Assembly: GCA_000091205.1 (NCBI GenBank)
Contig: AP006484.2
Length of the DNA stretch: 64,000 bases
Source of the DNA: Cyanidioschyzon merolae
Taxonomy: Eukaryota
Strand: one strand, 5' to 3'
Part shown: positions 2,290 to 64,000 of the stretch, piece after piece
How positions within the stretch are numbered: position 1 is the stretch's first letter
Layout of the letters: every line of letters starts with the position of its first letter
Made by a program: the position numbers and the translations under genes
The notes under the pieces: generated by a model
What the model was told of the DNA's origin: nothing
Databases searched by the model: none
The model's input: the letters and a program-made list of their open reading frames with translations, nothing else

Positions 2290-2444
2290 AGTTTAGGCAC
2301 TGCCGTCGTCAGAGACACAAACGTCTCCCCATGGCGTTGTGTCTGAACCCGGGGGATTCACGACGTCCATGAGAGCAGTCAGCGGCTGGACGCATCCGTA
2401 CTCGACATGCGTCAGCCGTTTGTTGCATGCAGCAATCACACATT

Positions 2445-24612: not shown

Positions 24613-25140
24613 AGAAGGTTTCGTGAGCTAGACGAGTCTGCTAGGCTGGTGCTTCACTCTCTAGACAGTGGCAGGTGCTGTGGCGAGCTCTGAGCAGCTC
24701 GTCTGCAACGCAATTCATTCTGGGACTAGGTGCAGTTAGGCTGAGTCTGGGCTTCGCACTGGTCGTGGTTGACTCCTAGCTTATCGATTCGTGCTGTCGC
24801 AGGCAGTCGGTCTGCCTGTACACTTTACATGCTCCCAGAATAGCTATGTACTCCGACTCCTTGTCGAATGGAGCAGGCATCGAGCCGAAACCCCGCCCCC
24901 CCACCAGTGGTGTGGCAAAGCCGTTCTGGCCCCGTGCTACGTACGCACTACCAGCACAGGCGCTACTGCGGGTGCTCATGGCAAGTACTCGGCGCACGAT
25001 AGACCGTACGAAACAACCAGTATATTCGAGAGGAACTAGGGGTCATGGAACCTGGAGGCCGGATGCTGCATGACGAACTTTTTTTCGAATGCTAATATCC
25101 ATCCCACAGCCTAGGAACCATGGCCAATGTAAATGCTTTT
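24580..25140. repeat. dispersed ~560-bp non-coding repeat, copy A (its 5' end is the progenitor of the 92-bp satellite)
   Basis: ~75% identical to 34826-35390. Shared blocks include cgtctgcaacgcaattcattctgggactagg, tggcaaagccgttctggcc, aaccagtatattcgagaggaac and gaatgctaatatccatcccacagcctaggaaccatggccaatg. Both copies start with the ttttccgtattgtggaaagatcacct satellite motif and end near a ccatgg pair. Confidence 0.7.
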
Positions 25141-27911
25141 TTCAGAGAGAAACACGCGCCCAATGGAGCGATCATTACGTTTCAAAATAGAAAACAATTC
25201 TTTCATGGGATTCAACCACGGAGCGCACGGAGGAATAAAAAGCAGCTCTGCCCTTGATAGATTCGGCAAAAGCTCGAACGCGAGTCGAATGGTGAAATAC
25301 CACGTTGTCCTATAGAGGGATGTCGCCAGACGCCAGCGGAAAAGTCTTCAATGATTCGGCAAAGTCGTTGGTGCCATCGTATGAATCCTCTGTACCAGCG
25401 AAACCGCGGCCGGCAAATGAATCCACTACCGCTAGGACAGATGATGTCGTCAGAGTTCTCTTCGAGATCCATCGCGCACACAACGGGCTTCCTGCTCTGC
25501 GAGTAGTCACATGCGCTCCAAAGGTTTCACTTAACGGAGTTCTCATCGACTGAAAAAACCACCCCAAGTCCCAGTGCTTCATACCGATCGCTGAGTTCCA
25601 GGAATTCTGTTGTTGCGATTTCAGTGGAAGATGACTGTGCATAAACTAGGACTTGTTTCTGCGACTTTATGCCAGTGTTTCAGGATCACACGAATAAGAC
25701 GTTGAGAAGTATAGACGCACATGACGAATGATATCTTTGCTTTTGCTTTCCGTTAAGTGATCAAAGATTCGCCTTTGACGATGGACCGCAAGCACGCCTT
25801 GAGACGATCGGGTTTTCGCGCGGGGCATATAGTCGTGTTTCTTTCAGGGTTCCGCAGCCATCAGAGTATTGTGTTATGACTGACCTGATTCAGAAATGCA
25901 GTCCTTGTTGCGCTCTTCAGTAAAGCATATATCCTGCAGGCAATTCGACTACGATCTGTCCGGCACGTTGCATCGTGCTTTCGATCAGCTGCTATACCCC
26001 GCAGCGGAGGTTGCACCAACATTGAGTTGAGAGCCCATAAGCGAGCGCTGCGATACCTGGTGATTCATTGATGTGCGTCGGTGTAATTTTTTATCAAAAA
26101 GTGTGTGCCATAAAACCAGGTCATCTATGGGTGTGCGGGCATAGCTTCTGGCCTATCGCAACGCGCCGCTAGTCTTGGTGATGCACTGTTATGTGTTGCG
26201 ATGTCCTTTCATTAGTCAGCATGCTTCGTGGAAACCAGGATGGCTGTGAAGAACTTCACCGTGTGCACGCCCTGATGTCTGGTATGTAGTGTAGCGGGTC
26301 GTTTGGCGCAGCCACGTATGCACACGGAAACATCAGAACGCAGCTCCATACGATTACAGCTCCCGCTTTTTAGAATCAGCGTCGTGTCTGGCGATGCTGC
26401 ACAGCGCTATGTGCACAAGGCGGGGCAGTCGCACAGTAACATCGAAAGGTTTGCCTTGTGCCTTGAAGGACTCCGCACGTTGTGTTGCGCTGTTGTAATG
26501 CGCGAGACTGGGGTCCGCGTGCGTCTGTTCTCGACGGATTCAAGGCAGCGCGCAAGCATGAGCGCAAGGCGTCTTCCGCGTCTTCCGCGTGCTTCTGGGA
26601 GACTGCGCGCGCTAGCCTGTTCGTATGGACGAGGCGGATCGTAGACCAAGCCGAACAGCAATGGCAGGTTTTTTCAGAGCTCTCCCGTACTCGGAATCGT
26701 GCGCCCTTCGCGTCTCAGAGGCGTATCTGGTCGATACGCAGCGCCTGCTAAACGGTATAAAACTCGGGTTCGAATCCGTCCATGATTATCGGATGCAGCG
26801 CACGCTGCACATCAGTGGCGTTTCGCGGAGCCCCAGAAGAGCGCCTAGCTGCGTTGCGCCGGGCGAACGATGCTAGATGTTTGCCGCCCAGCGCGTTATT
26901 GCCTAATCTGGGCATCGTTGACCGCAAAAGGGTCATTCACCGGGGATACTTGCTACCTCGTGATATCTGTGATGACTTTTAGCAGATGCCCAGCGGAGCC
27001 AACATCTCGATATAGCGATCTGGGCATTACAAATCACAAAAGCCTAAAGTTCGACATGCAGCAGACAACCCCCCGGGTCGATTAAGATAGCGAGCTCTCA
27101 TACGAACGGGTTGTACGGCTGGATCAACTCGGGTTTCTCCAGATGAGCAAAACAGACTAGAGCGAAATGGCATGGGATCTGAGAGACATCCACTTGCATT
27201 CAAAGAGGGCACTTGTCTCGCATGATGGGCCGAGCCCTCGAATCATGCTTCCAAACCAAAAACGATATCTACTGAACGGCATCCAAATTTCGCAAGAGAG
27301 CTCGTTTCGCTACGAAAAGTAGAGCAAAACACCTCTGTGGTCGGTGAAAAACGCCACCAGCTCGATATGGCTGTAAACTGATGCAATCCATGGCCTGCTG
27401 GAGAGACACCGCCCCGCTTCAATTCATCTGCCCGATACTGACTCGGAACGAGTGTTACGGAAGAAAATTCGATTGAGCCGAAGAAGCAACACCTCAAACA
27501 ATCGCCAAAGAAGCTCCAGTGCGATCATTGGCGATGGAACAATGAAGATAAGAACATGACTGAGGCTCGCTAGTATCCTGTACCAACTTACACCACTTTT
27601 CTGGTGCAAAGAGATCGATGCATCATGCTTGAGACGCAGCTACTGCTACCTACCATAGCTGCTGCCGCAGCGAGCACTGCACCCTCTTATGGGACCGCAC
27701 CTAGTTCGACTCGAGCGCGATTCACTGAGCTACAGTGCCACTCGCATAGAGTCACCCACAGGTATTATCAAGTCTCTGCGCGTTCCGTTGATTAACTCGA
27801 AAACAACGCCACCTCAGCGGTCCCATTCACCAGGCTCCACTCGCAGCGGTTTATCCGAGTGTCGGCGCCAGCTCGCTGTACGCTGAAAGATCCTCGACGC
27901 GCACATACCGC

Positions 27912-28166: not shown

Positions 28167-31100
28167 AGGTAACGGTGGTAAACGTCCAGTGAAGCCGGAA
28201 TGCGGCGGTTACCTCGTTGTGTGCAACTGCAGGCACCCAAGGCGACGTAAAGCTATTGAAGTGCATCGGCGGCGCCTGTGGTGCCGGCGCCCGGTGCGAC
28301 GGCACCATGGATGCGCTGTCGGAGGTTTGTATGCTCGGGGTCACGGGGGATGCCCTGCTCTTTTCTCCAAAAGTATTGTGGATCGAGTAAAATGCCGGTG
28401 ACTGGCCCGCAGCACGTATGCAGCGCTTATACGGCTGCCAGGATAGAACTGCAACGAGTTCACTGACTCAACGAGGGCGAACACGCGCAAGTTTGCGTTA
28501 TTTCATATCGTCAACTGCACCAGAACTTGGGGGTTGGTTTTTCGGTCTCCTGTGTCGCGTCTCCAACTTTAAATACGCTGGTCTCTCGTTTCGCTCCGAT
28601 TTCGTGAGCATCAGTCAGAGGATCGTGATAACAGGGCCAAATTCTCGTTCATAGGATTTCCGGTTGGCATAGACACGTGATAGGCGCAGGCGAAAGTTTC
28701 GATCGAATCTTCATTGGCCATGCTCACCTATTTGTTTGCGGCATCGGCGTACGCTTTGCAGCGATCACACCCGACTATGGTCAGATGCTGCCTTGTCTCC
28801 AGCGTGCTTCCTCGTACGAGTACTGCCCTCCGGCGCTTGAACTGTTGCTGCATCGCTCTGTACACGCACTAGACGAGTACAGAAGACTCCCCGTCGATGC
28901 CCTCGACCGTTTTCGCGTCTGGTGCCGTACCCGAAGATCACGAGCTTCGTCAGTGGCGATGCCCCCGACGAGTACTCTGTATGCGTCATATGCGAGTGCG
29001 CACTGTTCCATGCCATTGAAGATTTGTGGATTGCGGTGTTCGCCATGGTGGTAGGGATTTGGAAGGAAAATGCAGGTTGGAGAACTTGCCGAGAACTATC
29101 GATCCGGTGGCGTTCTCTTCATGGAAACCTGTGAAGCTTTCCCCATTGGAAGCCGTCTCCGCTATGTGTAGAGTACGAATCCATGAACACTTTTCATGCA
29201 AACAGAAGACAGGGTAGCCTCTCTGGGAGCATATCCCCTGAATTGTATCGTGCTGCGGTTGAATCCGCCGATTCATCGACGGGCACACAGAGAGAAGCAC
29301 CTGTCTTTCGACCCGCGTCGAGTATTTGACATGCGCTTGGGAAGAAGTCGTCAAGGAAGGTCGTCGAGATTCTCTCCTCATCGAAGCAGGGACGCGCATA
29401 GCTGTGCTCCTCGGTTACCTTGAAACAGAAAGATCGAGTTCTAGGAAACTGTATGAATTGAGCACGCGATATTTACGGAACGGAGAAGAGTCAAGGCTTG
29501 TTGTTCTGCATTGCGTTAAAATATCGGTTATTATAAGAGCCCTTGTACGAATCTGTCGCATGTCACTGTGATGATGGTGAGGTGACGAATTCTACTGGGA
29601 CTTTGTCGAAGGGGCCGTCCCGGAGAAAACAACCGCCGAGAATCGTAAACCAAGGTATGCATCCAAGAACGCCAATTCCCGCACTTCGAAATTAGAGGCG
29701 CAATATCAACACAAGTTCGCAGAGAAAATCGACAGATAGAAACAGAACGAGCAGTTCAGTTCGCGATGGTAGTTCGACACCATTGTGGAGCGCAGCAGCG
29801 TATCGCGCTCGTTCGACTGTACCTGGACGAGTTCGGATAATGTGCAGTCGGGCACACGAACCAGCCCGGGCAGAACTTGGTCCAGGCTCACCTGGGATGC
29901 TGGAGTGTCCTGAGGCGCAACTGGGTATGCCCGTTTGCCGAAACGATTCATTGTCGTTCGTTGGCACTCGTTTAGAGAGACACCCAGCTGCTAGACATGT
30001 GTGCACCATGCGTCCTTGGTGCGTGCGAGCGACGAATATCCCAATGTCGTCGGATCCCGTGGATGACAACCACGCAGCATCGACTCGTTACTCGTTCGAC
30101 GCACTAGTTGATGCCGCGGGCGTGCCGCCATCGCGTGCTATAGCGCGTCCTGCGCCAAAGGCGAATACCGCACCACGTGACTTGTCGGTCATGTTCTTTG
30201 CCACTTCATTGATGAAGCCCGCAAATCTATGCATCTTGCCTCCATGCAACCGATACCGTTGGCGGCCCCAGCGAGGTCTCTCGGAACGCTGTCGAAAATC
30301 GTTCGCACGAGCCATGTGGACGCTTCTGCTCTGTCCAGTGCTGGGCGCTACGGAATCGATGTTGGCACTGTCACGCCATTTGTTGGTATATACGCTGGCG
30401 TCCATAATGCTCGACTACCCATAAACGCGAACAATGGAGAAATCAAGCCATATTACATATTCTGTCTGAGCATCAATTACCCTGTCATATGAAGGTTCTA
30501 TCGAAAATTTCGAGAGGCATCTGCTCAGCTGGTAGCCCTGCGTCCGGATCGGCTACAGCAAGTCGTTTGACGAGGTGCATCGGGGCGAGAGCGGTGCCTC
30601 GCGAGACTTTGTCGCGTAAGGAGCTATGCGATATCTGTTGGCGTCCTGAATCTATCGATTAGCCGGAGACGAACTTGTTGGCTAGTGATCTATGCGCGTA
30701 AAAACCGCGTTTGCCGATAGTGACAATGCCGTACACTGGATAGAAGCTGGGAGCATGGGCTGGTACGAAGACCAGGTCCAGCCAAATTCCAGCTGTATGC
30801 TCCCTGTTTCTTGTTCAGTCATGGAACGCGACATTGCTAACGAGCAGGACAGACGAATTTGGTAAGGAGGAGCTTGGCAGAGAGACTCGATGAACGACGC
30901 GTCGTCGAGCAATCCTAACCGTTCGGCGATTTGGGGCCGGCCTCACGCTTGACTCCCCGCTGGGCCTGAAGCCGTTGTCGCACGTGCTTGACTCCTCTTT
31001 ACGGCCGGAGGTCTGCCCCTACTTCATCAACGATGCACAGACCTGCCAGTCTTCCCGAATCAAGACTCATCGAATGAGACGAACACCATCCAAACCTGTA

Positions 31101-31747
31101 CTGACAAAAATTCGCTTCTCAGTACGAAATCAATCGTGTCTTGTGCAACGCATGGCGCTCTCCCATACAGGCGTGCTTTGCCTCAACGTCCGCCCGTGTC
31201 CCTTCGTCACCGTTCGTATCGAGGGCATAGAGACGTCTCATTCGACGGCATCGTGAACATTGTCTCTTACACATCATATTCAGTAGAATACCTTTCGAAG
31301 GAGATCGTCGTCCATTTCGTCAGAGTTTGACCGGTTCTCCTCTAGGATGCGTGACGTTCAGAGCCAGCGTCGACGACGAGCAGCGTCATTCGACGTTGCT
31401 ATGCCCGTTGAAATACTGACAAGTAACGCCATTCTATATATGACAGCGATGACACCTTAGAGCCTTTCCAGGACCTCTGTCCAGACATCATCGCCACCAC
31501 CATCATCAGATATTCTATTCATAGAATACCTAGAAGAAAAAAAAACAGCGTGCTCCCGCAGGTATTCCAGCATGGACCGCTCCCGCACTGTAACGGACTC
31601 GCGGAGGGCGGCAGCGCGCGCACTTTGCGCGCCCCCGATGTGCTGTCCGTTTCGCCGCATCCGCCGGTGCCAGGCGCAGAGAAAAACGTTTCGCCTAGCG
31701 GAACTCGTACGTAGAAGCAGCGGAAGCGCGGCCCAGCGGCGAGCGTC

Positions 31748-34039: not shown

Positions 34040-34700
34040 ACAAAGATAGATTGCCTCGGCTCCTCGGGTCTTGTTTCAGCACCGCTCATCTTCTGATATT
34101 CATGGCGGCGTTGAAGTCTCAGTTCACAAACTCGATGCGTTTCTTACCTCTGGTTGAACTCACCAATGCAAGGAGTCCTATAGCTCGTGCCATGTGTGCC
34201 CCTACAGCCTCGTCAGCGCCTCGCCGCGTAAACCCATTGCTCGCTTATCTCCTGTCTTGTTCTTCTTCTTCTTCTTCGTCGCTTGCGCTTCATCGCGTGA
34301 CAGTCAGAGAGAAGGGGATTTTGTTCGTTCCTCCCGGGCAGCCGGCGATGGCGGCCCTCGAGGCTCCTCGGCTTCCTTGTCCACCAGTTTCGTTTTTAGT
34401 TTTGAAAACGAACGCATTTTAAACGCATCTGCTATAAACCGCGAAGGAGTACTTGAATACACGAATCTGAAGGCCGGAACGCATTTGGGATCAAACATCA
34501 TATTTTGCTCCGGCTTCAACGCAAATACAACTTGCACGGTAGAGCAGCGGGCTTGATGACGCCATGCTTTGCGCTTGTCGTGCATTGAGCACGTCACCGG
34601 CAACAGTGCACATTCCGAATGCAACATCGCTAGTTTTCTGGCAAGTCAACGAGTAATCAGGATCGCGTTTCCCTTCAACAGCAACATGCGCGTCGTGTCT
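34040..34700 (-). mobile_element. internally deleted (~660 bp) non-autonomous derivative of the Fanzor/TnpB-bearing element at 58.9-61.6 kb
   Basis: 34040-34215 is homologous to 58914-59085, the 3' end of the nuclease ORF plus ~18 bp. It encodes a degraded ...EFVN*DFNAAMNI with an in-frame stop. 34215-34700 is homologous to 61250-61625, the N-terminal KEEKK-coding start plus the upstream AT-rich region and right terminus. Shared strings include gatcgcgtttcccttcaacagcaacatgcgcgtcgtgtctcat vs gatcacgtttcccttcaacggcggcgcgcgcgtcgtgtctcat. About 2.2 kb of internal coding sequence is absent. Confidence 0.6.
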
Positions 34701-34825
34701 CATGCCCGACAGCTATGGAGGTACGGATCTCGGCTGCGCTATAGAAAAAAGAACAGAAACGATCCACTCCGTGGCAACTAGATCAAAAGTTCTTTCGCCT
34801 CTACTATAAGCGTTGAAACGGGAAC

Positions 34826-35390
34826 AGCTTTCCGTATTTTGCAAAGTTCACCTTCTCGGCGGAAAGTCCTGCAGGTCGGACAAGACTACTAGGCTAATAC
34901 GCTGCACTCTACGGAGCGAAGGGTACTGTAGTGAGATCTGGGCAGCCCGTCTGCAACCCAGTTTATTCTGGGAATAGGGTCTGGTATGCTTCGTCTGGGC
35001 ATCGTTTTGGTCGTAGTGCTCTTCTTGCATATCGCTTCGCGTTGTCGCGGGCAGCAAGTCTGTCTGCACAGCTTGCAAGCTCCCGGAATTACACTGAATC
35101 CCGATTCTGTGACTAGTGCACCACACCTCGCGCAGACGCCATCAGTGGTATAGCAAAGCCGTTCTGTCTCCGTGCAGCATCCGCACAGGCGGTATAAGCG
35201 CTATTGTGAGTGCTCAGATCACGTTAGGTGCACAGTGGAACGTGCAAAATAACCAGTATATCCGAGCGGAAGTACGAATAATGGAACTTGGACTTGTTGG
35301 GCAGCCTGCTTGACACTTTTTCGAACGCCAGCATCCATCCCGCTACGCTGGATCCATGGTCCATGGAAACGTTTTGGCAAAGAAAGAAAT
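34826..35390. repeat. dispersed ~560-bp non-coding repeat, copy B
   Basis: Homologous to 24580-25140. It begins with one satellite-like unit (aacgggaacagctttccgtattttgcaaagttcacctt). It lies ~100 bp from the miniature Fanzor-element copy. Confidence 0.7.
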
Positions 35391-54392: not shown

Positions 54393-57300
54393 CGTGGGTA
54401 CTACTGTTAGGGAAACTTGTGCAGAATTTCACAGCGGCTAGCGTGGTATCTAAACAATGGATAGAGAAACCAGCTTCGAGGATGCTATGCGCTAATAACT
54501 GGGGCGCATTCCGAAGAGCTGCCTATGCGCGAGCGCGTTGTCTTCTCTGGTGAAGCACCCGGCTGCACTGCAGTGCTGTGCAGCGCGGTGTTGCGGATCC
54601 GCTTGGGTACGGTTCCCGACGTAGCGCGGTACAGAAGCGCAATCACAATCTGCTTTTCATGCAGGTGAGCGCTGGTTGATGCTGCGACTTGATCAGGATC
54701 TGTGGGCCGTTTCATGAGAAACGAATGACAGGCTCATGGAATTTGCGGTTCCGTCGGTGGTAGCGATGCAACTCGTGAACCACTTACCTCGTAATATGGT
54801 GACTCTGAGCGACGCTGCCAAATGGTTCGTGAGCATGAACGTCCTCGTCACACGGATGCAGTCGTTCGGAACAGCGGCTTTATGGGACCTGTCCTCGACG
54901 ATGGTGTCGATCCTGTGCTTGCAGTGCTTGAAAACAAGGAGCGTAGAGATGGGATCTGCACAGTCCATGGAGCCTCACAGTGATTCCGCGCTGGTCTTCT
55001 CCGCAGAGGTACGCCCAGTGCTTATGCTCATTCACGCTAGCGTCTCTTGGTTCGAACTTGGTTTGAGCGATTGAACGCGGCTGCACGATTCAAACGCCGA
55101 ACAGGGGCGGATTCCACTTGGCGATGGCAGCAGCCGGGGGCACGACGCTCGACGACGCCATCTTTCTCCACTGGAACGATGTTTGGAGCTAATCAAGTGC
55201 TGTTCCTATCGAGCGCGCCAGTTCGATGAGATTGACGACGCCCAACAAGTTCATGCGAGTCGTGGAACCTGAGATGCGGAGCTTGCGCTCGCGGTGGCGC
55301 TTATTACAACTGCTTAGCACCAGTCGCTGTGACGAGCCCGCAGCAGCAGCAGCAGCGCCCGACAGGACTCGGGGCGGATCAGTTACCACCCGTGCTGTCT
55401 ACCGTGGTCAGATATTCCCAAATGTCCGCCAAATTTAGTTTTCCTCCGAGCGCTACCCTGTCGCGCGTGAACGCTCGCCTCATCGCTCGATACACTCTAC
55501 TGAAACCTACAGAAAGCTTCGCACCATGCCCTCTTTCGTTCCGTTGCCCGGCGTCGTAGCCCGGAATTACGGGCTTCGTCTGGGAAATCCGATCGGAAAG
55601 TACTCTGTCTACCGCACATACAAGAGCACACTGATCCACGCTACGGAGGATTTGTTGAACGAGATGTTTCTTCCCGATGAAATAACTGCCGCAAGGAGGA
55701 TCCAAGATGGAAAAACTCTATCCATCTAGGCTCCGTTCATGCAAAGAGATGTCGAATTCTCCACGGTAGGGGATCGTTGCAATGACTCTGGTCAACGTTT
55801 AAGACCCGCTTCTCATGCATAAAGAAAAGACGGTAACGTCTAGGAACATAATCAGCAGCGCATACCACGCTGCTGTCGAATGGCGTTTCGTGGATGATCA
55901 CGTTGACGGGAGGATTTATCTTTCGAGCGGAATCGATGGGTTGATTTTACAACTTCGTTGAACCGCTCGACGTGATCGTAAGAGCATGTCGTCGACGGAC
56001 GACGTCCTGTACTGTTCCTCAACATTCCAGTGACGCGAATCGCTCCGCCCACGAGTTGCCTGGATTCGAAAAGATAAAGAACTTGAAGAAAACCTATTGT
56101 CAGTATACCAGGTGTACCAAACCAAAAGATGGACGTGTTGTGCATATAAAATTCGTTATGATATCGGTTACTTGATGCGAATCTGAGTGCGAAGGCGTTG
56201 CGCGTCCTCTTGAATCCAGTGGCATAACGAGATCCAGCGGCAAAGCATCAAAGAAACTACTCCAACAAGACAACCAAGAATCCCAATTTTTGCTATGAAT
56301 CCATAAGGGCTGATTACAGCACCTCGTATTCAGGGCCTGTACATCAAAAGCAAGTTTCGAAATACATCGCCAGGCAGCAACAGAGCACGCTCATCATTTT
56401 TCCATGTCAAAATCAGTCGAGTCTAGAAGAGGGTGCTGCCTGAAACATCCACGTACAATAAGGACAAACGCTCCATGGGTCCATGGACATGCATGCACCC
56501 ACCTCTTCGTCTAATTCCTGAGCGCAGGCATCGTGAACATGTGTGCGCAAGTTACCTGAATAGACCAGCTGGGGGCAGCACTCCCAGTAGCGCGCACGCA
56601 GCCTCAGGCCGCCAACTCCTCAGGACGTCCCAAACCCTTGACATTACCTACGAAACAGATTCAGACGACTCCAACCTGACAAATACTCATATTGTCCAAA
56701 TCTCGCGTCTCCAACAACAAGTTAGAGCAAGCTGACTTACACCAAGAATAGAACGTCCCCGCATACGCTGTGTCTGCTCGAAGCTGCTTCTACGCGCGAT
56801 CGTGCACCGCGTGGTTGCGCGCCGCCGCCAGATGATGCAGCGATTCGATCTGGCGCTACGAAGAAGCATTCGTGCGCTCTATGGCAAAGGCGGCCAAAAA
56901 GCACCAACGGCATCTTAACGATGATCATGATCATCATTAATGTTGACGATATCACCATCAACATCAACAACATCGCTAACAGCATAGGATCCAAGACCTC
57001 CAGTACTCGTAGCAGTCGTAGCATCCTCGCTTATAGCGCACGATCGCTAGAGGCCTTTGCGCATCATCGCCGCCGCCGCCGCAGCTGCTGCCGCCGCCGC
57101 CGCCGCCTTGGAATCTCCCGACGGGTTGATCCAGAGCGGCTCGGTACCGTAGGGAGGCAGGTACGAGGTTTAGGTTTCGCCTGGAGCGCGCTTTGGGGCA
57201 GCCTTTTCAGGGCTGTTCTCGAACACTCTTGCTCTATTTGCAAAAGTCTTAGTTCACTGTGGTTGCGTGCGCGAGTTGTGTTGGCGCTCTGCTCTGGTGC

Positions 57301-57405
57301 AGTGGACTTGGTGACAACGTTCACTGGAACGGAAGCGTCACGAGGCGTGAGCAGCGCTGCGCGTGTCGCGAGGCAGAGCGAACCTTCTGGCTTGCTTGGT
57401 CCTGA

Positions 57406-58737
57406 ATGAAGCAGACTGAGCCCATGGAAACTGAGACGCAGTCAGAAACGCCTACAGCACCAAGTTCACGTGAGTCCGTTTCTGAGCAGAGCGGGGCGGT
57501 GTCGGCCGAGTCACGGAAGGTGTTGCCTCGGATCGCAAGTGCGGGCAATGAGCTCTATCGCGCAGCGGCGCCTGGTGTGCCATCCGCGGTGACTGCTTCG
57601 TATTCTGACTTTATTGCACAACAGCAGCATTATCAGCAGCAACAGAGAAGTTTAAGCGGCAGTGGTGGCAGCGGTCTTCGTCATAGCTTTTCGTGGGGTT
57701 CGTTCGTAGCGGCACCACCGTTCGCCGTCGGGTATGGAAGCGGTATCGGAGGCAGCGTCCCTAACCTGAGCTCTGGGGCTGCCCCGTTGGGTGCCGCAGA
57801 GATTCTCGCACAAAACGCATACCTCCACTCGGAACTAAACCGGGCGCAGTCGGAAATACAGGCACTACGGAATCGTATTTACGAGCTGGAGATGCACCTG
57901 GGGGTTGCCAGCTGTGGCGTCCGTTCCCCGACTGAAAGAGCATCAACACCTCCAGCTCCGGCGAGCGCTGGTCAGGGCAAGGCGCCAGGCAGCAGCACTG
58001 CGGTCGCTTTGGGCTCTGGGCCAGTGCTGACTGCGCCGCCGCCCTTGCACGTAGCAACTGCAGTTCCGTTTGGAGGATCAGCTGCGATACCGGCTTCTGG
58101 TGTTGGCGCGCTGTACTCTAACAATCGAGTGATGCCCTGCATGTCAATGCCGCATAGCTCGAGTCCACTGAATTTGCCAGCCTGGCGACCAGATCGGTTT
58201 TCGCCGTCTCCACCACCCGCCCAGTTTGGCAGCGGCCTCAGCACCAGCGCTACTACTGCATCTGGGCGCGCGGCATCTGTGCCAAACCAACCGTTTTCCT
58301 CTGCTGGACCTGGTAGTAGTCATGCGCGGCCGGGGCTCGCCGCAAAGAGCATGCTCGCCCGACACGATTCTCTAGGTTCCATCAGCAAAGACAGCCATAA
58401 CAGCCACGCGGATGAATACGGAACTGGGGGTTACAGCAGCAGCAGTGGAAGCAGTCTTCGTATTGGAGAACGTAGACGATCTCAATCATCCTCGAAACGA
58501 CGTGGAAGAGCCTCATCAGTGGGGTCGGCACCGGAGACCGGAACCCCGCAGCCACGGTACTGGACTCAGGAGGAACACCAACGTTTCCTGGAAGCTCTGG
58601 AAAAATTCGGAACCCGGAACGTGAGAGCGATCAGCGAGTATGTTGGTACTCGAAACGCAACGCAGGTTCGCACCCATGCACAGAAGTACTTCTTGCGGCT
58701 CACTAGAGAGGCAGAGAGGAAAACCTCGCGACCATGA
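57406..58737 (+). CDS. MYB-like transcription factor, SHAQKYF class (single Myb/SANT repeat at C-terminus)
   Basis: ATG at 57406. The C-terminus is RYWTQEEHQRFLEALEKFGTRNVRAISEYVGTRNATQVRTHAQKYFLRL. The preceding ~380 aa are Ser/Ala/Gly/Pro-rich low complexity with a short coiled-coil. Confidence 0.7.
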   Translation: MKQTEPMETETQSETPTAPSSRESVSEQSGAVSAESRKVLPRIASAGNELYRAAAPGVPSAVTASYSDFIAQQQHYQQQQRSLSGSGGSGLRHSFSWGSFVAAPPFAVGYGSGIGGSVPNLSSGAAPLGAAEILAQNAYLHSELNRAQSEIQALRNRIYELEMHLGVASCGVRSPTERASTPPAPASAGQGKAPGSSTAVALGSGPVLTAPPPLHVATAVPFGGSAAIPASGVGALYSNNRVMPCMSMPHSSSPLNLPAWRPDRFSPSPPPAQFGSGLSTSATTASGRAASVPNQPFSSAGPGSSHARPGLAAKSMLARHDSLGSISKDSHNSHADEYGTGGYSSSSGSSLRIGERRRSQSSSKRRGRASSVGSAPETGTPQPRYWTQEEHQRFLEALEKFGTRNVRAISEYVGTRNATQVRTHAQKYFLRLTREAERKTSRP

Positions 58738-58767
58738 CACCACCGCCTTTCGAAAGTCGAACGACGT

Positions 58768-58840
58768 CGCCGACGGTATAGCGTAGTGGCGGCAAACGGG
58801 CCTTAGACAAATCGTCTCCAACTGATGTGCAGACGCCTCC
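58768..58840. repeat. 73-nt direct repeat, left copy, flanking the Fanzor-element region
   Basis: cgccgacggtatagcgtagtggcggcaaacgggccttagacaaatcgtctccaactgatgtgcagacgcctcc vs the right copy cgccggccgtgcagagtagtggcgagtgacccgccccagacatgacgtgtccaactgacgtgcagacgcttcc at 62392-62464. Confidence 0.6.
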
Positions 58841-58931
58841 CCGTCTTTTTCGACCGGCCACGCACTACTGGTTCCCACTTTTTCTCATATAGTTCGATTT
58901 TGAGGGGTTGTCCTACAAAGGACCTTGTTGT

Positions 58932-61315
58932 CTACTCTGGAGGTCTTTTCTCCAGCACCGCACATCTCCTTATATTGATAGCGGCGTTAAAGTCTCTGTT
59001 AACAAATTCCATACGTTTCTTGCCATCATTGGTTGTACTTACTAGTGCAAGTAGTCCTCGAACTTTTGCCATCCTTTCCATTTGCTCGTCTGTCAGCGGT
59101 CCGTACTTTGCGATTTCCTCAGGGCTCCACTGGCACTTTTCCATCTCGACCCTCTGAAGTCTACACCCCAGTTCATGGTGCGTATACGATGTTCGGAACT
59201 CATCTACGGATATTGTAACGAAACGTCGTGCACACTCTTTGTACACCCTCGTCGTTGGAGAAGACGTATTCTCTTTCTTGGGCGCCCAGCGCCCTGCCCC
59301 ATACGCTACTACGAGCCTCTGACTCTCATCCTCCTTCAAGGCGACCAACTGATTGAAAAAGTTGGCAAACGCCCGCTGTTTCCCGCCGTATAGATTCATT
59401 CGCAAACGAGCCCACCGGGGCTTGGTATCCTCCTCCCACAGCGCATCCCAATGAGCAACACGAATTTCCATGAATTTCCGAAAAGCTTCAAAGTCCGCTC
59501 CTCGGCTCGTCACCTCGCTCAAAGCTCCCAGGTGATCCTTCATTCCTGAATTCCAAGTCTCGATTTTCTTCCTCGCATTCATCATTCCCAATTCTCGATA
59601 GTATCTCGCTCTCGAGAACCCCAAAAGACGCATGTCTTTCTGACGCAAGTTACCGTCAATGCCATCTTCCGCACGCTTTGGTGCTGCGATGGTTATGATA
59701 TTCGTGTTCCCAGGGTCCGCGCCAACGACAAAGTCGTTATCCTGCACTTTCTGTGTCCGAGGGCCCGCCTTCTTGTTTTCTACATGCTTCGCCGCGCCAA
59801 CCATAAAGGCGTTATCCTACACCTCCTGCATCACAGGATCCGCCTCCTTCTCGTGTTCACCCTTGGTCACGTTAACGACAAAGTCGTTATCTTGCACTAT
59901 CTGCTTCTCAGAACGCGCCTTGTTGTTTTCTTCATGCTCAGACAGGCCAGCGACAAGGTTGTCATCCTCCACCTCCTGCATCGCAGGACCAGCCTCCTCC
60001 TTTTCTTCATCCTTCGTCACGTCAACGACAAGGTCGTTATCCGCACCTCCTGCGTCGCAGGATCCTCCTCTTTGTTTTCTTCATCCTTCGCCACGTCAAG
60101 GACGAGGTCATTATCCTCCACTTCCTATGTCGCAGGACCAGCCTCCTCCTTTTCTTCATCCTTTGTCACGGGCGCAGCCGAGGGCGCAACTGGCCGATCT
60201 CCCTTCAACGGCCGATAGTGTATACACAAGGCTACTCCATCGGTTTCAATCATCCCGCTGAACAACTTCTGCTTGCTCACTCTCAGAGGTTTGAAATCGA
60301 AGATGCTCTTCCTGTACGTCTCCCGGTTTTTACCAGAGAATTCCTCTGTGCTAACATTGGACTCTGGACTGATCTCCTTCATGATGCCATGAAGGACGCC
60401 GGAGTTGATAGTCACAAAATGTGACTCGATCTTGCACATTGGAACCACGTTGAAGCGCTTACCCATTAGGACAGACTTCCGTCTCTCCCACTCTTCATTT
60501 GTCTCTTCACTCAGCTTCATCTCCGCTTCGCGTTCGAGTTCACGGTCCAAAAACACAAGATACCGCAGGGAGAGGCGATAGTATTTTTCCTTATCTATTT
60601 TCAACTCTGATACCTTTTCTGTTGGATTCACCAGCCCCAAGACTGCACGGTGCTCTTGTATAGCCGCACGGGTTACAGAAGCTTCATTCGTGCTCCCTTT
60701 TGACGTCTACTTGTCGACAAATTCGACCTCACCTTGATGCTTGCGATCTCTCGTGATGCCATTGATCATCGCCCATATTCCTTTGCGAGAGATACCTGGG
60801 TAGAGTGCAACCGCGGCGCGTACTATGAAACATTCGAGGATCACTGTCAAATGGTTCTTCAGATTCGTGAGGTACTTCATCGCTCCGTATGTGTAAATAC
60901 CCTGGCCACCCTTGTATCGATTACCCTCGAAGCGGAATTCCGCGAAGTTTTCGTGGAGGCCGTCCACTAGCACATTTTCCTTCCGCGCTTCCGCTGTACC
61001 AAAGATGAGGTAACGAAAAAAGGTCTTTTCGAAAAACTCGTCCGGAATCTCGACCGTTTCCATGTGCGTCACGTCGCGATACATCTCCCTCGCTAAATGC
61101 ATCAGTCCTGACGACGCCTCTATAATACTCTTGGAGTCCGAATCGACACGGTTTCTGATAGCGTCTCGCAAATTTTCTCTGCAGGGATCCTTGACATGTC
61201 CAAGAAGAGAGGTATTCACAACCATCTCGTTGTACAGTCGTCTTTCTTGCAGCCTTCGACGCAGGACCTTCCCCTTTTGGGTCTTCTTCTCTTCCTTTTC
61301 TCCTGGACTCGGCAC
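58932..61315 (-). pseudogene. Fanzor-like (eukaryotic TnpB/IS605-OrfB family) RuvC nuclease gene, interrupted by an in-frame TAG and a frameshifting intragenic tandem repeat
   Basis: C-terminal 290-aa segment (58932-59804) has Ruv[24 protein letters not shown]. It has an IGDW-like LVVAYGAGRW. RuvC-II is TISVDEFRTSYTHHELGC with a Cys/His cluster. RuvC-III is NRDFNAAINIRRC, then stop. The N-terminal parts (60710-61315 and 60128-60706) share one frame but are separated by TAG at 60707-60709. They begin with a K/E/R-rich NLS-like stretch (GEKEEKKTQKGKVLRRRLQERR). The frame shifts in the repeat block 59700-60180. The track start at 61315 is GTG, so the true N-terminus is undefined. Confidence 0.6.
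59700..60180. repeat. intragenic tandem repeat (~74-bp units, ~5-6 diverged copies; 148-bp double unit) inside the Fanzor-like ORF
   Basis: gacaaagtcgttatcctgcac / gacaaggttgtcatcctccacctcctgcatcgcagga motifs recur at ~59729, 59808, 59877, 59953, 60027 and 60100. The units encode repeated ...[19 protein letters not shown]...[10 protein letters not shown]... peptides. The segment encoding the RuvC-I strand DNDFVV is reiterated three times. Confidence 0.75.
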
Positions 61316-62391
61316 TGTTTTTTGTTTTTTCTGGCAGCCTGCGACCCTGGGCCTCCAGGATCGTCGACTTCCTTTTCATAACTTTTCTTTTCTAGTTTTT
61401 TTAAATGAACCCTCTGTGAACGCTTCTGTTATATACTGCGAAAAATCAATCGAATATTTTCACTTGAGGGTTGAAACACAATCGAACTAAAAACTATACT
61501 TGCCTATGAAATTAACGAAAATACAACTTTTACACGAGAGCTAGACGCTAAAGATCAAGATCACGTTTCCCTTCAACGGCGGCGCGCGCGTCGTGTCTCA
61601 TATCTGCCCCAACTCTCAGGTACGCTCATCGAGCGCGATGCATGCGCTGCGCGAGACGCCTCATCGATCGATGAAGGACACGTGTCCGACACCCCGCCTT
61701 GGCATATGCGTGTTTGTATCGCGCTGCAGCTGAAGTAAAGTATCGTAGATTGGAAACTCACGTAGAGTAATCTCTTGCTATAGGCTCTGTCGCTGGTGCC
61801 GAAGCTACTGCCCATCGCAGTACCGCCTTGACATACATGGAGATGTAGGGGCCTGGCACGATACCCCTCGACGCTTCTATCAAAAGCGTAGCGTTCTCTG
61901 CGGCTTACGCTTGTCTGGATAAGGTACGCATCACTCTAGCCTTGAAGAGTTTCGTTAGTTTTATTGATCGTAAACAAACAAGGGACGGTAGGATTCCTGA
62001 ACACGGACATACGTTTAATTCCTATGCTTGTTATGCATGCCGCACGGACGCTGGAATAAGGACCTGACCTGAATTTTGCTTCTATCCCGCGTCATGGGCT
62101 AGAACCGATGATAGTTCAAGTCATTTCCATGCTATCGTCGTTGTCCAAGTTATGATGCCCGCTACGTCCCCCGGATCCGGTGGTCTCGGCAGAGGCATAC
62201 CACATATGTGGCGTCCATATCTGCCACGACGTTTGAGCCTTGCATCTCGCCTGGCACGATCGAGGCATCCGGCAATAGCACATATTGTGTTCTGATCTAC
62301 TCTATAAGATTGGTTTCAAGAGCCTAACCCGTACATCGAGCCCGGAAGCGACATAGCCAACAACAAATGCCTTTGAAAAGAAAAACTTTTT

Positions 62392-62464
62392 CGCCGGCCG
62401 TGCAGAGTAGTGGCGAGTGACCCGCCCCAGACATGACGTGTCCAACTGACGTGCAGACGCTTCC
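62392..62464. repeat. 73-nt direct repeat, right copy
   Basis: See the left copy at 58768-58840. The two lie ~3.55 kb apart in the same orientation. Confidence 0.6.
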
Positions 62465-62466
62465 AA

Positions 62467-62514
62467 AATAACGTAGCGCCGGAGGAAATTCCTTTACACC
62501 TCCTCTACGTTATT
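62467..62514. other. interrupted hairpin (10 bp + 5 bp stem) immediately after the right direct repeat
   Basis: aataacgtag-cgcc-ggagg-aaattcctttaca-cctcc-t-ctacgttatt. The outer 10-bp stem is perfect, and the inner ggagg/cctcc stem is also perfect. Confidence 0.4.
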
Positions 62515-62845
62515 CGTCAGTGAGCTGCTGCGACGTGTCTTCACGATAATTGTGATCTCTGAACTCAGCATCGCGGAGCGCTGACCGACCAGTACTGACG
62601 AGATTGTTGCTCGGAAAACAGCGAGTTTTGCCTAGTTTCTGAGAAATACTTTCAGCGCTTGTGCGGGTTGTGCTCAAAGTTGGACAGTCCAGGGGAGATT
62701 GAGGTCGGCATCAGCACCAATGGACGGGCGATCACACGTGCAGCAACGCAAAAGATGTTTTCGACTGGATATGCACACCTACGCGAAAGACTCTAGCCGG
62801 TGACGTGATCGACAGCTTTGCACCGGAGAAAATCTAACCGAGAAA

Positions 62846-63904
62846 ATGCAAGCTCTTTTCGTGTCTGTCCCGTTGTACCAGGAAAGACACATTGTTCGCG
62901 CGCGCGCTGCAATTCGAGCACCGTTCCCGCTGCGTACTGCACGTGATGGGTGCTTCGCAGCTGGACATTGTCAACATTGTCAGCATCCGCTGCCCTTTGT
63001 GGTGCAGCGTTCGCCTGTAGCGCGCCGGCATCGTATGCTGCATCTTCATATGGGCCCGAAACAGTCGCAGATCGCCGTGATCACTGGCGCGTCCTCTGGG
63101 GTCGGTCTGTATGCAGCTCGCGCTCTGATCAACAAGGGCAACTTGCACGTCGTCATCGCATGTCGTGACATCGACCGGGCGGAACGCGCAGCAAACAGCG
63201 TGAACCTTCTAAAGGACGCCTATACCGTGCTGCATTGTAGTCCGGCTGATTTTGCCTTTGTACTAAAGTTTGTGAGAGAGCTATCGAGTGTGGCGCGCAT
63301 CGATCACCTAGATACCCTGATCTGCAATGCCGCAATCTGGCATCCGCGGGACAAGAAACCGCGTTTCACGGTGGACGGCATCGAGGAAACCATGCAGGTA
63401 TGCCATCTGAGCCATTTGCTTCTATGCCGGGAGCTGTTGCCGAAGCTGAAAATATCGCGCGGGCGCATTGTGTTTCTGACAACTCAGACCCATTCGACGA
63501 ATTCGCTGCCGGGAAGGATCCCCCCGCGGGCTCGCCTCGGCGATTTGTCTGGTCTAGCCGCGGGGCTTGATCCGCAGACGACTGGCATGGTAGGCAGTGG
63601 TCCGTTTGAGCCCACAAAAGCCTACAAAGTCGCCAAAGCCGCTAGCGTGTTGACAATGAAGGCGCTTAGTGATCGATACGGCCGCGATGGGGTGACCTCT
63701 GTGACGATTTTCCCGGGATGTGTCGCCGATAGCAACCTCTACCGCGAAAAGCTTGGCTGGTTCCGCTACGTATTCTTCCCGATTCTTCAGAAGTATATCA
63801 CTCGGCAATACGTTCCGAATGATGAGGCCGGCCGCCGTATAGCCGAAGTGGCGACCCAGGGACAGTTCTCGGACTCGGGCTCGTATTATCAGTGGCGTGG
63901 CTAA
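62846..63904 (+). CDS. POR: light-dependent NADPH:protochlorophyllide oxidoreductase (LPOR, SDR family) with N-terminal plastid transit-peptide-like extension
   Basis: ATG at 62846. IAVITGASSGVGLYAARAL...HVVIACRD...ERAAN matches the LPOR N-terminus (AVITGASSGLGLATAKAL...HVIMACRD...ERAAK). Also LICNAAIWHP, IPPRARLGDLSGLAAGL (the LPOR-specific loop), the active site YKVAKAAS, IFPGCVADSNLYRE and FPILQKYITRQYVPNDEAGRRIAEV. The ~65-aa presequence MQALFVSVPL... is basic with a Phe at position 5. Confidence 0.85.
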   Translation: MQALFVSVPLYQERHIVRARAAIRAPFPLRTARDGCFAAGHCQHCQHPLPFVVQRSPVARRHRMLHLHMGPKQSQIAVITGASSGVGLYAARALINKGNLHVVIACRDIDRAERAANSVNLLKDAYTVLHCSPADFAFVLKFVRELSSVARIDHLDTLICNAAIWHPRDKKPRFTVDGIEETMQVCHLSHLLLCRELLPKLKISRGRIVFLTTQTHSTNSLPGRIPPRARLGDLSGLAAGLDPQTTGMVGSGPFEPTKAYKVAKAASVLTMKALSDRYGRDGVTSVTIFPGCVADSNLYREKLGWFRYVFFPILQKYITRQYVPNDEAGRRIAEVATQGQFSDSGSYYQWRG

Positions 63905-64000
63905 TATATGGAAGGTCGAGAGAAGACGAAACCGCAGGTTATTGAACCAACTTACGTAATCGACAAGGCAGATCAGCTTTACGAACTGAGTTTTGACGAT

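What the first reader, a model, noticed from the sequence alone, without database searches (positions are those of the whole stretch)
58932..61315. Fanzor/TnpB-like RuvC nuclease gene (eukaryotic OMEGA-type RNA-guided endonuclease family) with the catalytic triad intact but the ORF broken
The minus-strand ORF carries the three RuvC motifs in TnpB/Fanzor order with diagnostic sequence context. RuvC-I is VVGADPGNTNIIT, an IGDW-like AYGAGRW follows, RuvC-II is SVDEFRTS... plus a Cys/His cluster, and RuvC-III is RDFNAAINI. The VDEFRTS and DPG-NIIT contexts are the eukaryotic/giant-virus flavour of the family. A K/E/R-rich NLS-like N-terminus matches the nuclear localisation described for Fanzors. 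The reading frame is broken by one in-frame TAG (60707-60709) and by a frame change inside an internal tandem repeat. This looks like a recently inactivated copy, or a copy needing readthrough or splicing. If the lineage really is a Cyanidiophyceae-type red alga (an inference made elsewhere in this annotation), this would be an unexpected host, but I cannot check from here whether Fanzor has been recorded in that lineage.
Basis: partly seen in the sequence, partly recalled or inferred. Interest (0 to 1): 0.85.

Follow-up and report, generated by a model that had tools for sequence, protein, structure and literature searches.

The report
Dead Fanzor1 transposon copy, already described
This is a decayed, non-functional copy of CMe-1A, a transposable element carrying a Fanzor1 (TnpB-like, RNA-guided nuclease) gene that was reported from this same red alga, Cyanidioschyzon merolae, in 2013, so the call is correct but the finding is ordinary.

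Summary
The minus-strand gene (ATG 61377-61379 to TAA 58803-58805) belongs to the Fanzor1 family CMe-1 of Bao & Jurka 2013. The window matches positions 648-3169 of their 3,169-bp CMe-1A consensus at 84-88% identity.

- **Host:** two window ORFs are identical to C. merolae 10D proteins. The host is therefore not unexpected. It is the genome in which this family (about 150 copies) was first described.
- **Homology:** a profile comparison with green-algal Fanzor1s gives E 2e-18. An AlphaFold model (pLDDT 85.5) has solved Fanzor1 structures as its best PDB matches, followed by Cas12 and TnpB structures. The D/E/D residues align with the catalytic residues.
- **State of this copy:** it is more damaged than reported, with four premature in-frame TAGs and three 1-nt deletions. 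The same lesions occur in wild metagenomic alleles. It is an old pseudogene, not a recently inactivated copy or a recoded gene.

Points that go beyond the 2013 description:

- This copy has a different 5' region.
- A 25-aa unit just before RuvC-I is expanded to six copies.
- The whole clade lacks the CCCC zinc finger.
- The 3' end carries hairpins with a G·U bias on the sense strand, which looks ωRNA-like.
- Some relatives sit directly downstream of a DDE_3 transposase.

The parts
58803..61379 (-). Fanzor1 (CMe-1) pseudogene, from the homologous ATG (61377-61379) to the natural TAA stop (58803-58805)
   Evidence: tblastn with the published CMe-1 protein covers aa 11-428 (71% identity) and aa 405-734 (85% identity). 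A nucleotide alignment to the CMe-1A consensus places the ATG and the stop.
61380..62270 (-). 5' non-coding part of the element. Positions 61380-61637 match CMe-1A consensus 648-905. Positions 61640 to about 62270 are an alternative 5' region that replaces the TE-N2_CMe module of the published consensus.
   Evidence: blastn to the consensus starts at consensus position 648. The upstream 560-630 bp is shared at 79-84% identity with other copies (L009, L030, L054, L066) but not with the consensus.
60707..60709 (-). Premature TAG 1 (Lys/AAG in the consensus)
59721..60169 (-). Tandem array of six 75-bp (25-aa, acidic) units whose last unit runs into the RuvC-I strand. It contains TAG 60125-60127, TAG 59817-59819 and a 1-nt deletion in unit 2 (60021-60094).
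   Evidence: TRF finds period 75, 6.0 copies, 71% matches. The consensus has a single unit at positions 2117-2196. Other copies have 2-5 units.
59691..59729 (-). RuvC-I motif VVGADPGNTNIIT (Asp codon 59715-59717)
   Evidence: D30 is invariant in alignments with green-algal Fanzor1s and with intact clade relatives. It aligns to GCDPGK of GtFz1.
59187..59210 (-). RuvC-II motif SVDEFRTS (Glu codon 59199-59201)
   Evidence: E202 is invariant. The profile aligns it to SpuFz1 LDEYKTS, where the Glu is E541 (PMC11423790).
58971..59000 (-). RuvC-III motif NRDFNAAINI (Asp codon 58992-58994)
   Evidence: D271 is invariant. It aligns to SpuFz1 WNRDM, where the Asp is D606. There is also a weak PF07282 match at residues 268-278.
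58932..58934 (-). Premature TAG 4 (Leu in the consensus).
   Evidence: Homologues and the consensus read on for 43 more codons...PPELTRENF...HVSWRRFV.
58730..58870 (-). 3' end of the element, holding the last codons, the stop and three hairpins (AGAC-N5-GTCT, GGCG-loop-CGCC, and a terminal hairpin). This is the candidate ωRNA scaffold or right end. The published consensus ends at 58744.
   Evidence: Based on an alignment of 34 distinct copies. RNAalifold pair 83-88 is GC in 15 copies and CG in 12. The terminal hairpin occurs in two compensated versions, with mean z of -1.66. Stem pair counts are 239 Watson-Crick, 69 G·U on the sense strand and 8 A·C. No Rfam family matches.
62369..62464 (-). 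Solo 3'-terminal fragment of another CMe-1A copy, in the same orientation, about 100 bp upstream of this element
   Evidence: blastn to consensus 3073-3168 at 80% identity. It is direct repeat D2 with 58745-58840.

Best explanation
The region is one of the roughly 150 copies of CMe-1A, a non-autonomous transposable element of Cyanidioschyzon merolae whose only gene encodes a Fanzor1 protein. Fanzor1 is the eukaryotic branch of the TnpB/Cas12 RuvC nucleases. This copy is a 5' variant: a different ~600-bp 5' region replaces the TE-N2_CMe module of the published consensus. It is a pseudogene with four premature TAG codons and three single-base deletions.

What is shown:
- Family membership.
- The host.
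- The RuvC fold and the aligned D/E/D residues.
- The lesions and their presence in wild alleles.

What is inferred from characterised Fanzor1 proteins (SpuFz1, GtFz1, PpFz1):
- An intact family member would bind an ωRNA transcribed from the 3' end of the gene and element.
- It would use the sequence just beyond the element's right end as a guide.
- It would cut matching double-stranded DNA with the RuvC site, which favours retention or spread of the element.

The structured 3' end (three hairpins, with G·U pairs tolerated only on the coding strand) is the likely ωRNA scaffold. Mobilisation was probably supplied in trans. Close relatives, and some degenerate copies in this genome, have a Tc1/mariner-type DDE_3 transposase immediately upstream of the Fanzor gene. 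This particular copy makes no functional protein.
For: Family and host:
- Published family: PMC3627910 reports C. merolae Fanzor1 CMe-1 (734 aa) and CMe-1A (3,169 bp, about 150 copies, about 80% identical to the consensus, no TIRs).
- Window 61637..58744 matches consensus 648-3169 at 83.5-88% identity. tblastn with CMe-1 gives E 0.0.
- Window ORFs 47032-48576 and 35608-36705 are identical to C. merolae 10D BAM78951.1 and BAM78947.1.

Homology to Fanzor1:
- hhalign of the family profile against six green-algal Fanzor1s gives probability 99% and E 2.2e-18. BLASTP against Volvox VCa-2 gives 6e-20.
- Chlamydomonas Fanzor1s related to those six carry PF07282.
- A mixed profile hits SpuFz1 8gkh at 9e-13, followed by Fanzor2 L79, PpFz1, GtFz1 and TnpB. 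It aligns E to E541 and D to D606.
- The AF2 model has pLDDT 85.5. Its top seven Foldseek PDB hits are all Fanzor1 structures (E 7e-9 to 2e-6, TMq 0.55-0.62), followed by Cas12o, TnpB, CasΦ and Cas12i/m/f.

Pseudogene status:
- Lesions.
- The same broken ORF pattern occurs in four JGI metagenomes.
- None of 84 fetched family loci holds an intact ORF.

Selection and mobilisation:
- Third-codon-position excess (mismatch 0.116, 0.097 and 0.187 at positions 1-3) shows past purifying selection.
- 3' hairpins.
- DDE_3 neighbours.
Against: - Direct Pfam and NCBIfam scans of the ORF are not significant on their own (PF07282 E 0.09). A narrow family profile finds nothing in the PDB. Homology rests on profile-profile, transitive and structural evidence.
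- The CCCC zinc finger is part of Bao & Jurka's motif and is conserved in SpuFz1 and TnpB. It is absent here and in all 107 clade relatives checked. Nuclease competence of even the intact members is therefore unproven.
- No ωRNA has been demonstrated. RNAalifold alone supports only one hairpin weakly. Many of the G·U counts are inherited states, not independent events.
- The DDE_3 link is by adjacency in relatives and in other copies, not in this copy. CMe-1A lacks the TIRs expected of Tc1/mariner elements.
Confidence: 0.93

Rival explanations
1. The gene is still functional and is expressed through stop-codon readthrough or TAG reassignment, programmed frameshifting, or removal of introns that contain the lesions.
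For: All four premature stops are TAG. A GT...AG interval of 90 nt (60732-60643) could remove TAG 60707 in frame, as seen directly in the sequence. The D/E/D residues are intact.
Against: - Three separate 1-nt deletions also break the frame.
- The putative 'intron' is coding and conserved in the consensus and in intact relatives (FVDKKTSRRSTNEAS...).
- The three neighbouring ORFs checked end in TGA or TAA, and the frameshifts are independent of any code change.
- AAG, GAG and CAG codons are abundant in this K/E/Q-rich ORF, so TAG is the expected nonsense product. Two of the TAGs align with CAG or GAG in sister repeat units.
- From general knowledge, C. merolae has very few introns.
Confidence: 0.02
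2. It is a Fanzor2/IS607-type element, or a prokaryotic TnpB acquired by recent horizontal transfer or present as contamination, and not a Fanzor1.
For: The profile also hits mimivirus L79 (Fanzor2) and ISDra2 TnpB. The fold search also returns TnpB and Cas12 structures.
Against: - Fanzor1 structures rank first by both sequence profile (8gkh 9e-13, against 2e-7 for L79 and 4e-3 for TnpB) and fold.
- The closest relatives are 580-750-aa eukaryote-type proteins.
- No serine-recombinase or Y1 TnpA-like ORF stands out in the ORF list around the gene, although this was not scanned against profiles.
- The flanking genes are C. merolae nuclear genes.
- Bao & Jurka placed CMe-1 in Fanzor1.
Confidence: 0.03
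3. The CMe-1 clade are RuvC-fold proteins that have lost RNA-guided nuclease activity altogether, for example by becoming DNA- or RNA-binding transposon accessory proteins. In that case 'RNA-guided endonuclease' describes their ancestry, not how the family works.
For: The CCCC zinc finger of the TNB/NUC domain, conserved in TnpB and SpuFz1, is missing in all 107 clade relatives examined. No member of this clade has been assayed in the papers read.
Against: - D, E and D are invariant across relatives that are only 37-51% identical, which argues for retained catalysis.
- The structured 3' end with a sense-strand G·U bias fits an ωRNA.
- The third-position excess shows the protein was under selection.
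Confidence: 0.12

Closest known systems
CMe-1A / Fanzor1 CMe-1 of Cyanidioschyzon merolae (Bao & Jurka 2013, Mob DNA 4:12; PMC3627910)
   Same: - Same genome.
- 84-88% nucleotide identity over consensus positions 648-3169.
- Same protein (71-85% identity to the 734-aa consensus) and same 3' end.
- No TIRs.
- The copy is about as diverged from the consensus as the published 'about 80%'.
   Different: - This copy lacks the 5' 647 bp (the TE-N2_CMe module) and carries another ~600-bp 5' region, shared with a subset of copies.
- The 25-aa unit before RuvC-I is present six times, against once in the consensus.
- The ORF is destroyed by seven lesions.
Structurally characterised Fanzor1 nucleases: SpuFz1 (8GKH), GtFz1 (9CER), PpFz1 (9CF0)
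   Same: - The RuvC half has the same fold (Foldseek E 7e-9 to 2e-6, TMq 0.55-0.62).
- The E and D of RuvC-II and RuvC-III align to SpuFz1 E541 and D606, and the RuvC-I D aligns to the GtFz1 GCDPGK motif.
- The gene sits at the 3' end of a transposable element, with structured RNA-like sequence at the right end.
   Different: - Only 12-20% sequence identity.
- The CCCC zinc finger of the NUC/TNB domain is absent and is replaced by a helical/β insertion.
- No ωRNA or cleavage activity has been demonstrated for this clade.
Fanzor1 genes carried by Mariner/Tc1-type elements (e.g. PUl-1 of Pythium ultimum in Bao & Jurka 2013)
   Same: The closest intact relatives (P0286 loci L086-L089) have a PF13358 DDE_3 transposase directly upstream on the same strand. 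Degenerate DDE_3 genes abut a Fanzor1 remnant and a TE-N2 piece in the window, and the CMe-1 ORF in L064/L065.
   Different: This copy has no transposase. No TIRs or TA duplications were seen. The association is inferred from other copies.
Prokaryotic TnpB of IS200/IS605 (ISDra2, 8H1J/8EXA)
   Same: RuvC fold, D/E/D order, and the position of the gene next to a structured right end with subterminal hairpins.
   Different: - Much weaker similarity (profile E about 4e-3; Foldseek E 4e-4, TMq 0.36).
- About twice the length, with a eukaryote-specific N-terminal half (DUF8286).
- No TnpA.
- Located in a nuclear genome.

Membership tests
Fanzor1 (eukaryotic TnpB-like RuvC nucleases) | Significant sequence homology to recognised Fanzor1 proteins | tested here: met
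   hhalign of the family against green-algal Fanzor1s gives probability 99% and E 2.2e-18. BLASTP against VCa-2 gives 6e-20. The protein is near-identical in family to published CMe-1.
Fanzor1 (eukaryotic TnpB-like RuvC nucleases) | Split RuvC with D...E...D in order, aligned to catalytic residues of solved members | tested here: met
   D30, E202 and D271 of the 290-aa ORF are invariant. E aligns to SpuFz1 E541, D to D606, and the RuvC-I D to the GtFz1 DPG motif. This rests on profile alignment. A residue-level structural superposition was not available.
Fanzor1 (eukaryotic TnpB-like RuvC nucleases) | RuvC/TNB fold most similar to Fanzor1 structures | tested here: met
   The AF2 model has pLDDT 85.5. 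The top seven Foldseek PDB hits are SpuFz1, PpFz1 and GtFz1.
Fanzor1 (eukaryotic TnpB-like RuvC nucleases) | C4 (CCCC) zinc finger between RuvC-II and RuvC-III (part of Bao & Jurka's motif; conserved in SpuFz1 and TnpB) | tested here: not met
   No CxxC pair is present, only HH..C..C. None of 107 clade relatives has two CxxC knuckles, whereas the Chlamydomonas controls do. I treat this as a lineage-wide loss within the family, because the authors who defined the motif included CMe-1. It is a real departure from the motif.
Fanzor1 (eukaryotic TnpB-like RuvC nucleases) | ωRNA encoded at the 3' end of the gene and the transposon right end | tested here: inconclusive
   Conserved or compensated hairpins with a sense-strand G·U excess. 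No Rfam match. No expression data.
Fanzor1 (eukaryotic TnpB-like RuvC nucleases) | RNA-guided dsDNA cleavage | not testable with these tools
   This needs biochemistry. This copy cannot encode the protein.
CMe-1A transposable-element family of C. merolae | About 80% nucleotide identity to the 3,169-bp consensus, in the C. merolae genome | tested here: met
   83.5-88% identity over consensus 648-3169. Host proteins are identical to strain 10D.
CMe-1A transposable-element family of C. merolae | 5' 635 bp equal to TE-N2_CMe | tested here: not met
   Similarity to the consensus starts at position 648. An alternative 5' region is shared with L009, L030, L054 and L066. This copy is therefore a 5' variant (sub-family) of CMe-1A.
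CMe-1A transposable-element family of C. merolae | No terminal inverted repeats | tested here: met
   No inverted repeat joins the two ends.
Fanzor2 / IS607-type TnpB elements | Closest similarity to Fanzor2 or IS607 TnpB, often with an adjacent serine recombinase | tested here: not met
   Fanzor2 L79 and TnpB score well below Fanzor1. No recombinase-sized ORF lies next to the gene. The neighbouring short ORFs were not scanned against profiles.

The most novel reading that the evidence does not exclude
The most novel reading that the evidence does not exclude has four parts:

- CMe-1 represents a large, still uncharacterised Fanzor1 clade: at least 1,370 clusters at 50% identity, many of them intact 580-750-aa proteins. 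This clade has replaced the CCCC zinc finger of the TNB/NUC domain with a Cys-free insertion while keeping D/E/D.
- Its ωRNA is the hairpin-rich 3' end seen here, which is selected on the sense strand.
- Its natural vehicle is a Tc1/mariner-type DDE_3 transposon. That would supply the classification that was 'unknown' for CMe-1A in 2013.
- Near-intact copies (P0291, 752 aa open) in wild C. merolae populations would mean the family is not entirely extinct.
Probability: 0.3. Interest if true: 0.4.

Novelty: already known. Interest (0 to 1): 0.15.

Why it matters
As a finding it matters little. It re-identifies, correctly, a transposon family published in 2013 in the very genome where it was found, and this copy is dead.

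The side observations may interest Fanzor specialists:

- A zinc-finger-less Fanzor1 clade with an intact catalytic triad.
- A candidate ωRNA scaffold defined by compensated hairpins.
- Adjacency to a DDE_3 transposase, which suggests how these 'unclassified' elements move.
- Modular 5' ends.

If an intact clade member proved active, it would show that the zinc finger is dispensable for RNA-guided cleavage in this family.

Tried and rejected
- Direct Pfam and NCBIfam scans of the two ORF halves gave only a sub-threshold PF07282 hit (E 0.09) and nothing for the N-terminal half.
- phmmer of the ORF, and hmmsearch of a narrow family profile, against PDB sequences gave no relevant hit.
- The first AlphaFold run used a shallow, 70-99%-identical alignment. 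It gave pLDDT 45 and was unusable, so it was not searched. It was replaced by a diverse alignment.
- The intron hypothesis for TAG 60707 (a 90-nt GT..AG interval) was rejected, because the interval is coding in the consensus and in relatives.
- TAG reassignment was rejected because of the three frameshifts.
- An Rfam scan of 57000-64000 at E ≤ 1 gave no family.
- RNAalifold on the MAFFT alignment of 3' ends recovered only 4 pairs, because the two versions of the terminal hairpin are out of register in a sequence alignment. I therefore counted pairs per hairpin type by script.
- No covariance model was built.
- A search for intact paralogues among 84 fetched loci found none. The longest ORF (747 aa, L020) is frameshifted at its N-terminus. 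P0291 (752 aa) is open but lacks the start and the last ~35 codons.
- Look-ups meant to return the NCBI chromosome record returned either nothing or only metagenomic contigs.
- tblastn of the DDE_3 transposase found no trace in this copy's own 5' region.
Full report
**1. Observation**

The minus strand between about 58.8 and 61.4 kb holds a series of ORF pieces: 60707-61315, 60125-60640, 59817-60020 and 58932-59804. Read across frames, they form one long protein.

- VVGADPGNTNIIT at 59691-59729
- AYGAGRW at 59286-59306
- SVDEFRTS at 59187-59210
- NRDFNAAINI at 58971-59000

A 75-bp tandem repeat of six units spans 59721-60169.

The description understates both the size of the gene and the damage. 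Aligned to the family consensus, the start is ATG 61377-61379 and the natural stop is TAA 58803-58805. The lesions are:

- Four premature TAG codons: 60707-09, 60125-27, 59817-19 and 58932-34.
- Three 1-nt deletions: directly after the ATG, at about 61330 in an A-run, and at about 60045 in repeat unit 2.

**2. What it is**

A protein search returned 293 relatives at 66-99% identity. All were ORF fragments from a handful of JGI/ENA metagenomes. The same locus, with the same broken ORF pattern, is present in four of those metagenomes.

[quoted passage not shown] This is CMe-1 (734 aa), carried by CMe-1A:

- 3,169 bp long, with about 150 copies, each about 80% identical to the consensus
- no TIRs, target-site duplications undetermined, classification unknown
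- a 5' 635 bp that equals a separate element, TE-N2_CMe

I took the protein and DNA consensus from their additional files. Window 61637..58744 aligns to consensus 648-3169 at 83.5-88% identity. tblastn with CMe-1 covers aa 11-734.

The host is settled independently. Window ORF 47032-48576 is identical to C. merolae 10D S-adenosylhomocysteine hydrolase (BAM78951.1). ORF 35608-36705 is identical to CYME_CMB153C (BAM78947.1). Both lie on a 457,013-bp record. The other long ORFs are typical eukaryotic nuclear genes, including peroxin-3, NOG1 and a SacI-domain protein. The window is therefore the reference genome in which this family was first described.

**3. Is it really Fanzor/TnpB?**

Direct profile scans are not significant (PF07282 E 0.09), and a narrow family profile finds nothing in the PDB. 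Four other lines of evidence support homology.

- *Profile comparison.* The family profile against six green-algal Fanzor1s gives hhalign probability 99% and E 2.2e-18. BLASTP against Volvox VCa-2 gives 6e-20. Chlamydomonas Fanzor1s related to those six carry PF07282.
- *Solved structures by sequence.* A profile that includes the six green-algal proteins hits SpuFz1 (8GKH) at 9e-13, then Fanzor2 L79, PpFz1, GtFz1, TnpB and Cas12m. In those alignments the Glu of VDEFRTS pairs with SpuFz1 chain residue 935, which is E541. The Asp of NRDFNAA pairs with residue 1000, which is D606. The DPG Asp pairs with the GtFz1 GCDPGK motif. Residue numbers are from PMC11423790.
- *Exhaustive search.* A profile search of 1.84 billion representatives found 1,370 relatives with E ≤ 1e-3. 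Many are intact 580-750-aa proteins that are 37-51% identical to the window ORF, with D30, E202 and D271 invariant.
- *Fold.* With a diverse alignment of such proteins, AlphaFold2 gave a confident model of the 290-aa ORF (pLDDT 85.5, pTM 0.77). Foldseek against the PDB returned SpuFz1, PpFz1 and GtFz1 as the seven best hits (E 7e-9 to 2e-6, TMq 0.55-0.62). Cas12o, TnpB, CasΦ and Cas12i/m/f followed.

The Fanzor reading stands, and more precisely it is Fanzor1.

**4. State of this copy**

This copy carries seven disabling lesions and differs from the consensus by 12-16%.

- The codon at TAG 60707 is AAG in the consensus. The surrounding segment is translated in relatives, so it is not an intron.
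- Two TAGs inside the repeat align with CAG or GAG in sister units.
- Mismatch to the consensus by codon position is 0.116, 0.097 and 0.187, against 0.203 in non-coding parts (family-wide values). Part of the divergence therefore arose while the lineage was still coding. This agrees with Bao & Jurka's remark on long-lasting coding capacity.
- None of 84 fetched family loci is intact. The longest open reading frame found is P0291: 752 aa, 83% identical, D/E/D intact, without a start codon or the last ~35 codons.

This is an old pseudogene, not a recently inactivated or recoded gene.

**5. Mechanism**

*Shown:* family, fold, aligned catalytic residues, and loss of coding capacity.

*Inferred from SpuFz1, GtFz1 and PpFz1 (PMC10432273, PMC11423790):* intact members bind an ωRNA derived from the 3' end of the gene and element, and cut DNA matching the guide.

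The 3' ~140 nt of 34 distinct copies show three hairpins.

- In the middle hairpin (GGCG-loop-CGCC), one pair is GC in 15 copies and CG in 12.
- The terminal hairpin exists in two fully compensated versions: CGTTTTTC-TTTT-GAAAGACG and CGTTCGA-CTT-TCGAACG. The mean z-score of folding energy is -1.66.
- Across the terminal stems there are 239 Watson-Crick pairs, 69 G·U pairs on the coding strand and only 8 A·C pairs.

This asymmetry points to selection on the sense RNA and not on DNA hairpins. Many of these states are inherited, not independent events, and no Rfam family matches. I regard the ωRNA assignment as likely but unproven.

**6. Differences from what is published**

- *5' region.* This copy, and about half of the fetched copies, begin their similarity to the consensus at positions 646-690. 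The window's next 560-630 bp upstream (to about 62270) is a different module, shared at 79-84% identity with L009, L030, L054 and L066.
- *Repeat expansion.* The 25-aa acidic unit in front of RuvC-I is single in the consensus. It is present six times here and two to five times in other copies.
- *Zinc finger.* The CCCC zinc finger is part of Bao & Jurka's motif and is conserved in SpuFz1 and TnpB. It is absent from CMe-1 and from all 107 clade relatives that could be scored, whereas the Chlamydomonas Fanzor1 controls have it.
- *Transposase neighbour.* The closest intact relatives (P0286; L086-L089) lie directly downstream of a PF13358 DDE_3 transposase. Degenerate DDE_3 genes occur in the window at 31179..30671, next to a divergent Fanzor1 remnant at 30447..30091. 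They also occur at 25956..25174, next to a TE-N2_CMe-like piece, and in L064/L065 immediately upstream of the CMe-1 ORF. This suggests that the ancestral autonomous element was a DDE_3 transposon carrying Fanzor1, as already known for Mariner-type Fanzor1 elements in other taxa. No TIRs were found here.

**7. Verdict**

It is an already described family in the very genome where it was described, and this copy is a long-dead pseudogene. Interest is low. The side observations (zinc-finger-less clade, candidate ωRNA hairpins, DDE_3 adjacency, modular 5' ends) are modest leads for specialists.

Noticed in passing
window 34065-35379 (minus strand): A second CMe-1A copy that is internally deleted. 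Consensus 4-730 maps to 35379..34656 (77% identity) and consensus 742-969 to 34546..34321. A short protein-level remnant (CMe-1 aa 647-689) lies at 34190..34065.
   Followed up: partly
window 22964-24393 and 24581-25144: A 92-bp tandem array of 15.6 copies (96% matches), built from a segment matching CMe-1A/TE-N2_CMe consensus positions ~520-563. It lies directly next to a TE-N2_CMe-like piece (consensus 4-554, 78% identity).
   Followed up: partly
window 25174-25956 and 30671-31179 (minus strand): Two degenerate Tc1/mariner-type DDE_3 transposase pseudogenes containing stops and frameshifts. The first abuts the TE-N2_CMe-like piece. The second lies just upstream of a divergent Fanzor1 remnant. 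Window 25160-25993 is ~70% identical at nucleotide level to the DDE_3 remnant upstream of the CMe-1 ORF in L064.
   Followed up: partly
window 30091-30447 (minus strand): A ~120-aa remnant of a second, divergent Fanzor1 gene. It is 32% identical to CMe-1 aa 462-591 and 39% identical to the intact relative P0286 (E 1e-17). Only the stretch between RuvC-I and RuvC-II survives.
   Followed up: partly
window 62369-62464 (minus strand): A solo 96-bp 3' end of another CMe-1A copy, in the same orientation, about 100 bp upstream of this element's 5' region. Similar head-to-tail arrangements occur in L035 and L038, where a TE-N2 5' end starts ~55 bp after their 3' end.
   Followed up: partly
3' flanks of family copies (alignment A4, columns 139-150; window about 58730-58743): Similarity between copies continues 4-15 nt past the published consensus end (GTT[T/C]G, then T/G-rich sequence such as TTGTTGTTGG). 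Either the element is slightly longer than published, or it has a target-site preference.
   Followed up: no
L085 4001-6259 (JGI 3300050362, Ga0504780_000149): P0291 is a 752-aa open reading frame of the CMe-1 family with four repeat units and D/E/D intact. It is the most complete copy seen. The cluster has 22 members from several contigs.
   Followed up: partly
P0278 (NCBI: CEUSTIGMA_g11935.t1, Chlamydomonas eustigma): A relative from the same zinc-finger-less Fanzor1 clade, 43% identical, is annotated in the acidophilic green alga Chlamydomonas eustigma.
   Followed up: no
window 57406-58737 (+): The element's 3' end (about 58744) lies only a few bases from the stop codon (58735-58737) of a convergently oriented Myb/SHAQKYF-type gene. 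The insertion therefore sits in that gene's immediate 3' flank.
   Followed up: no
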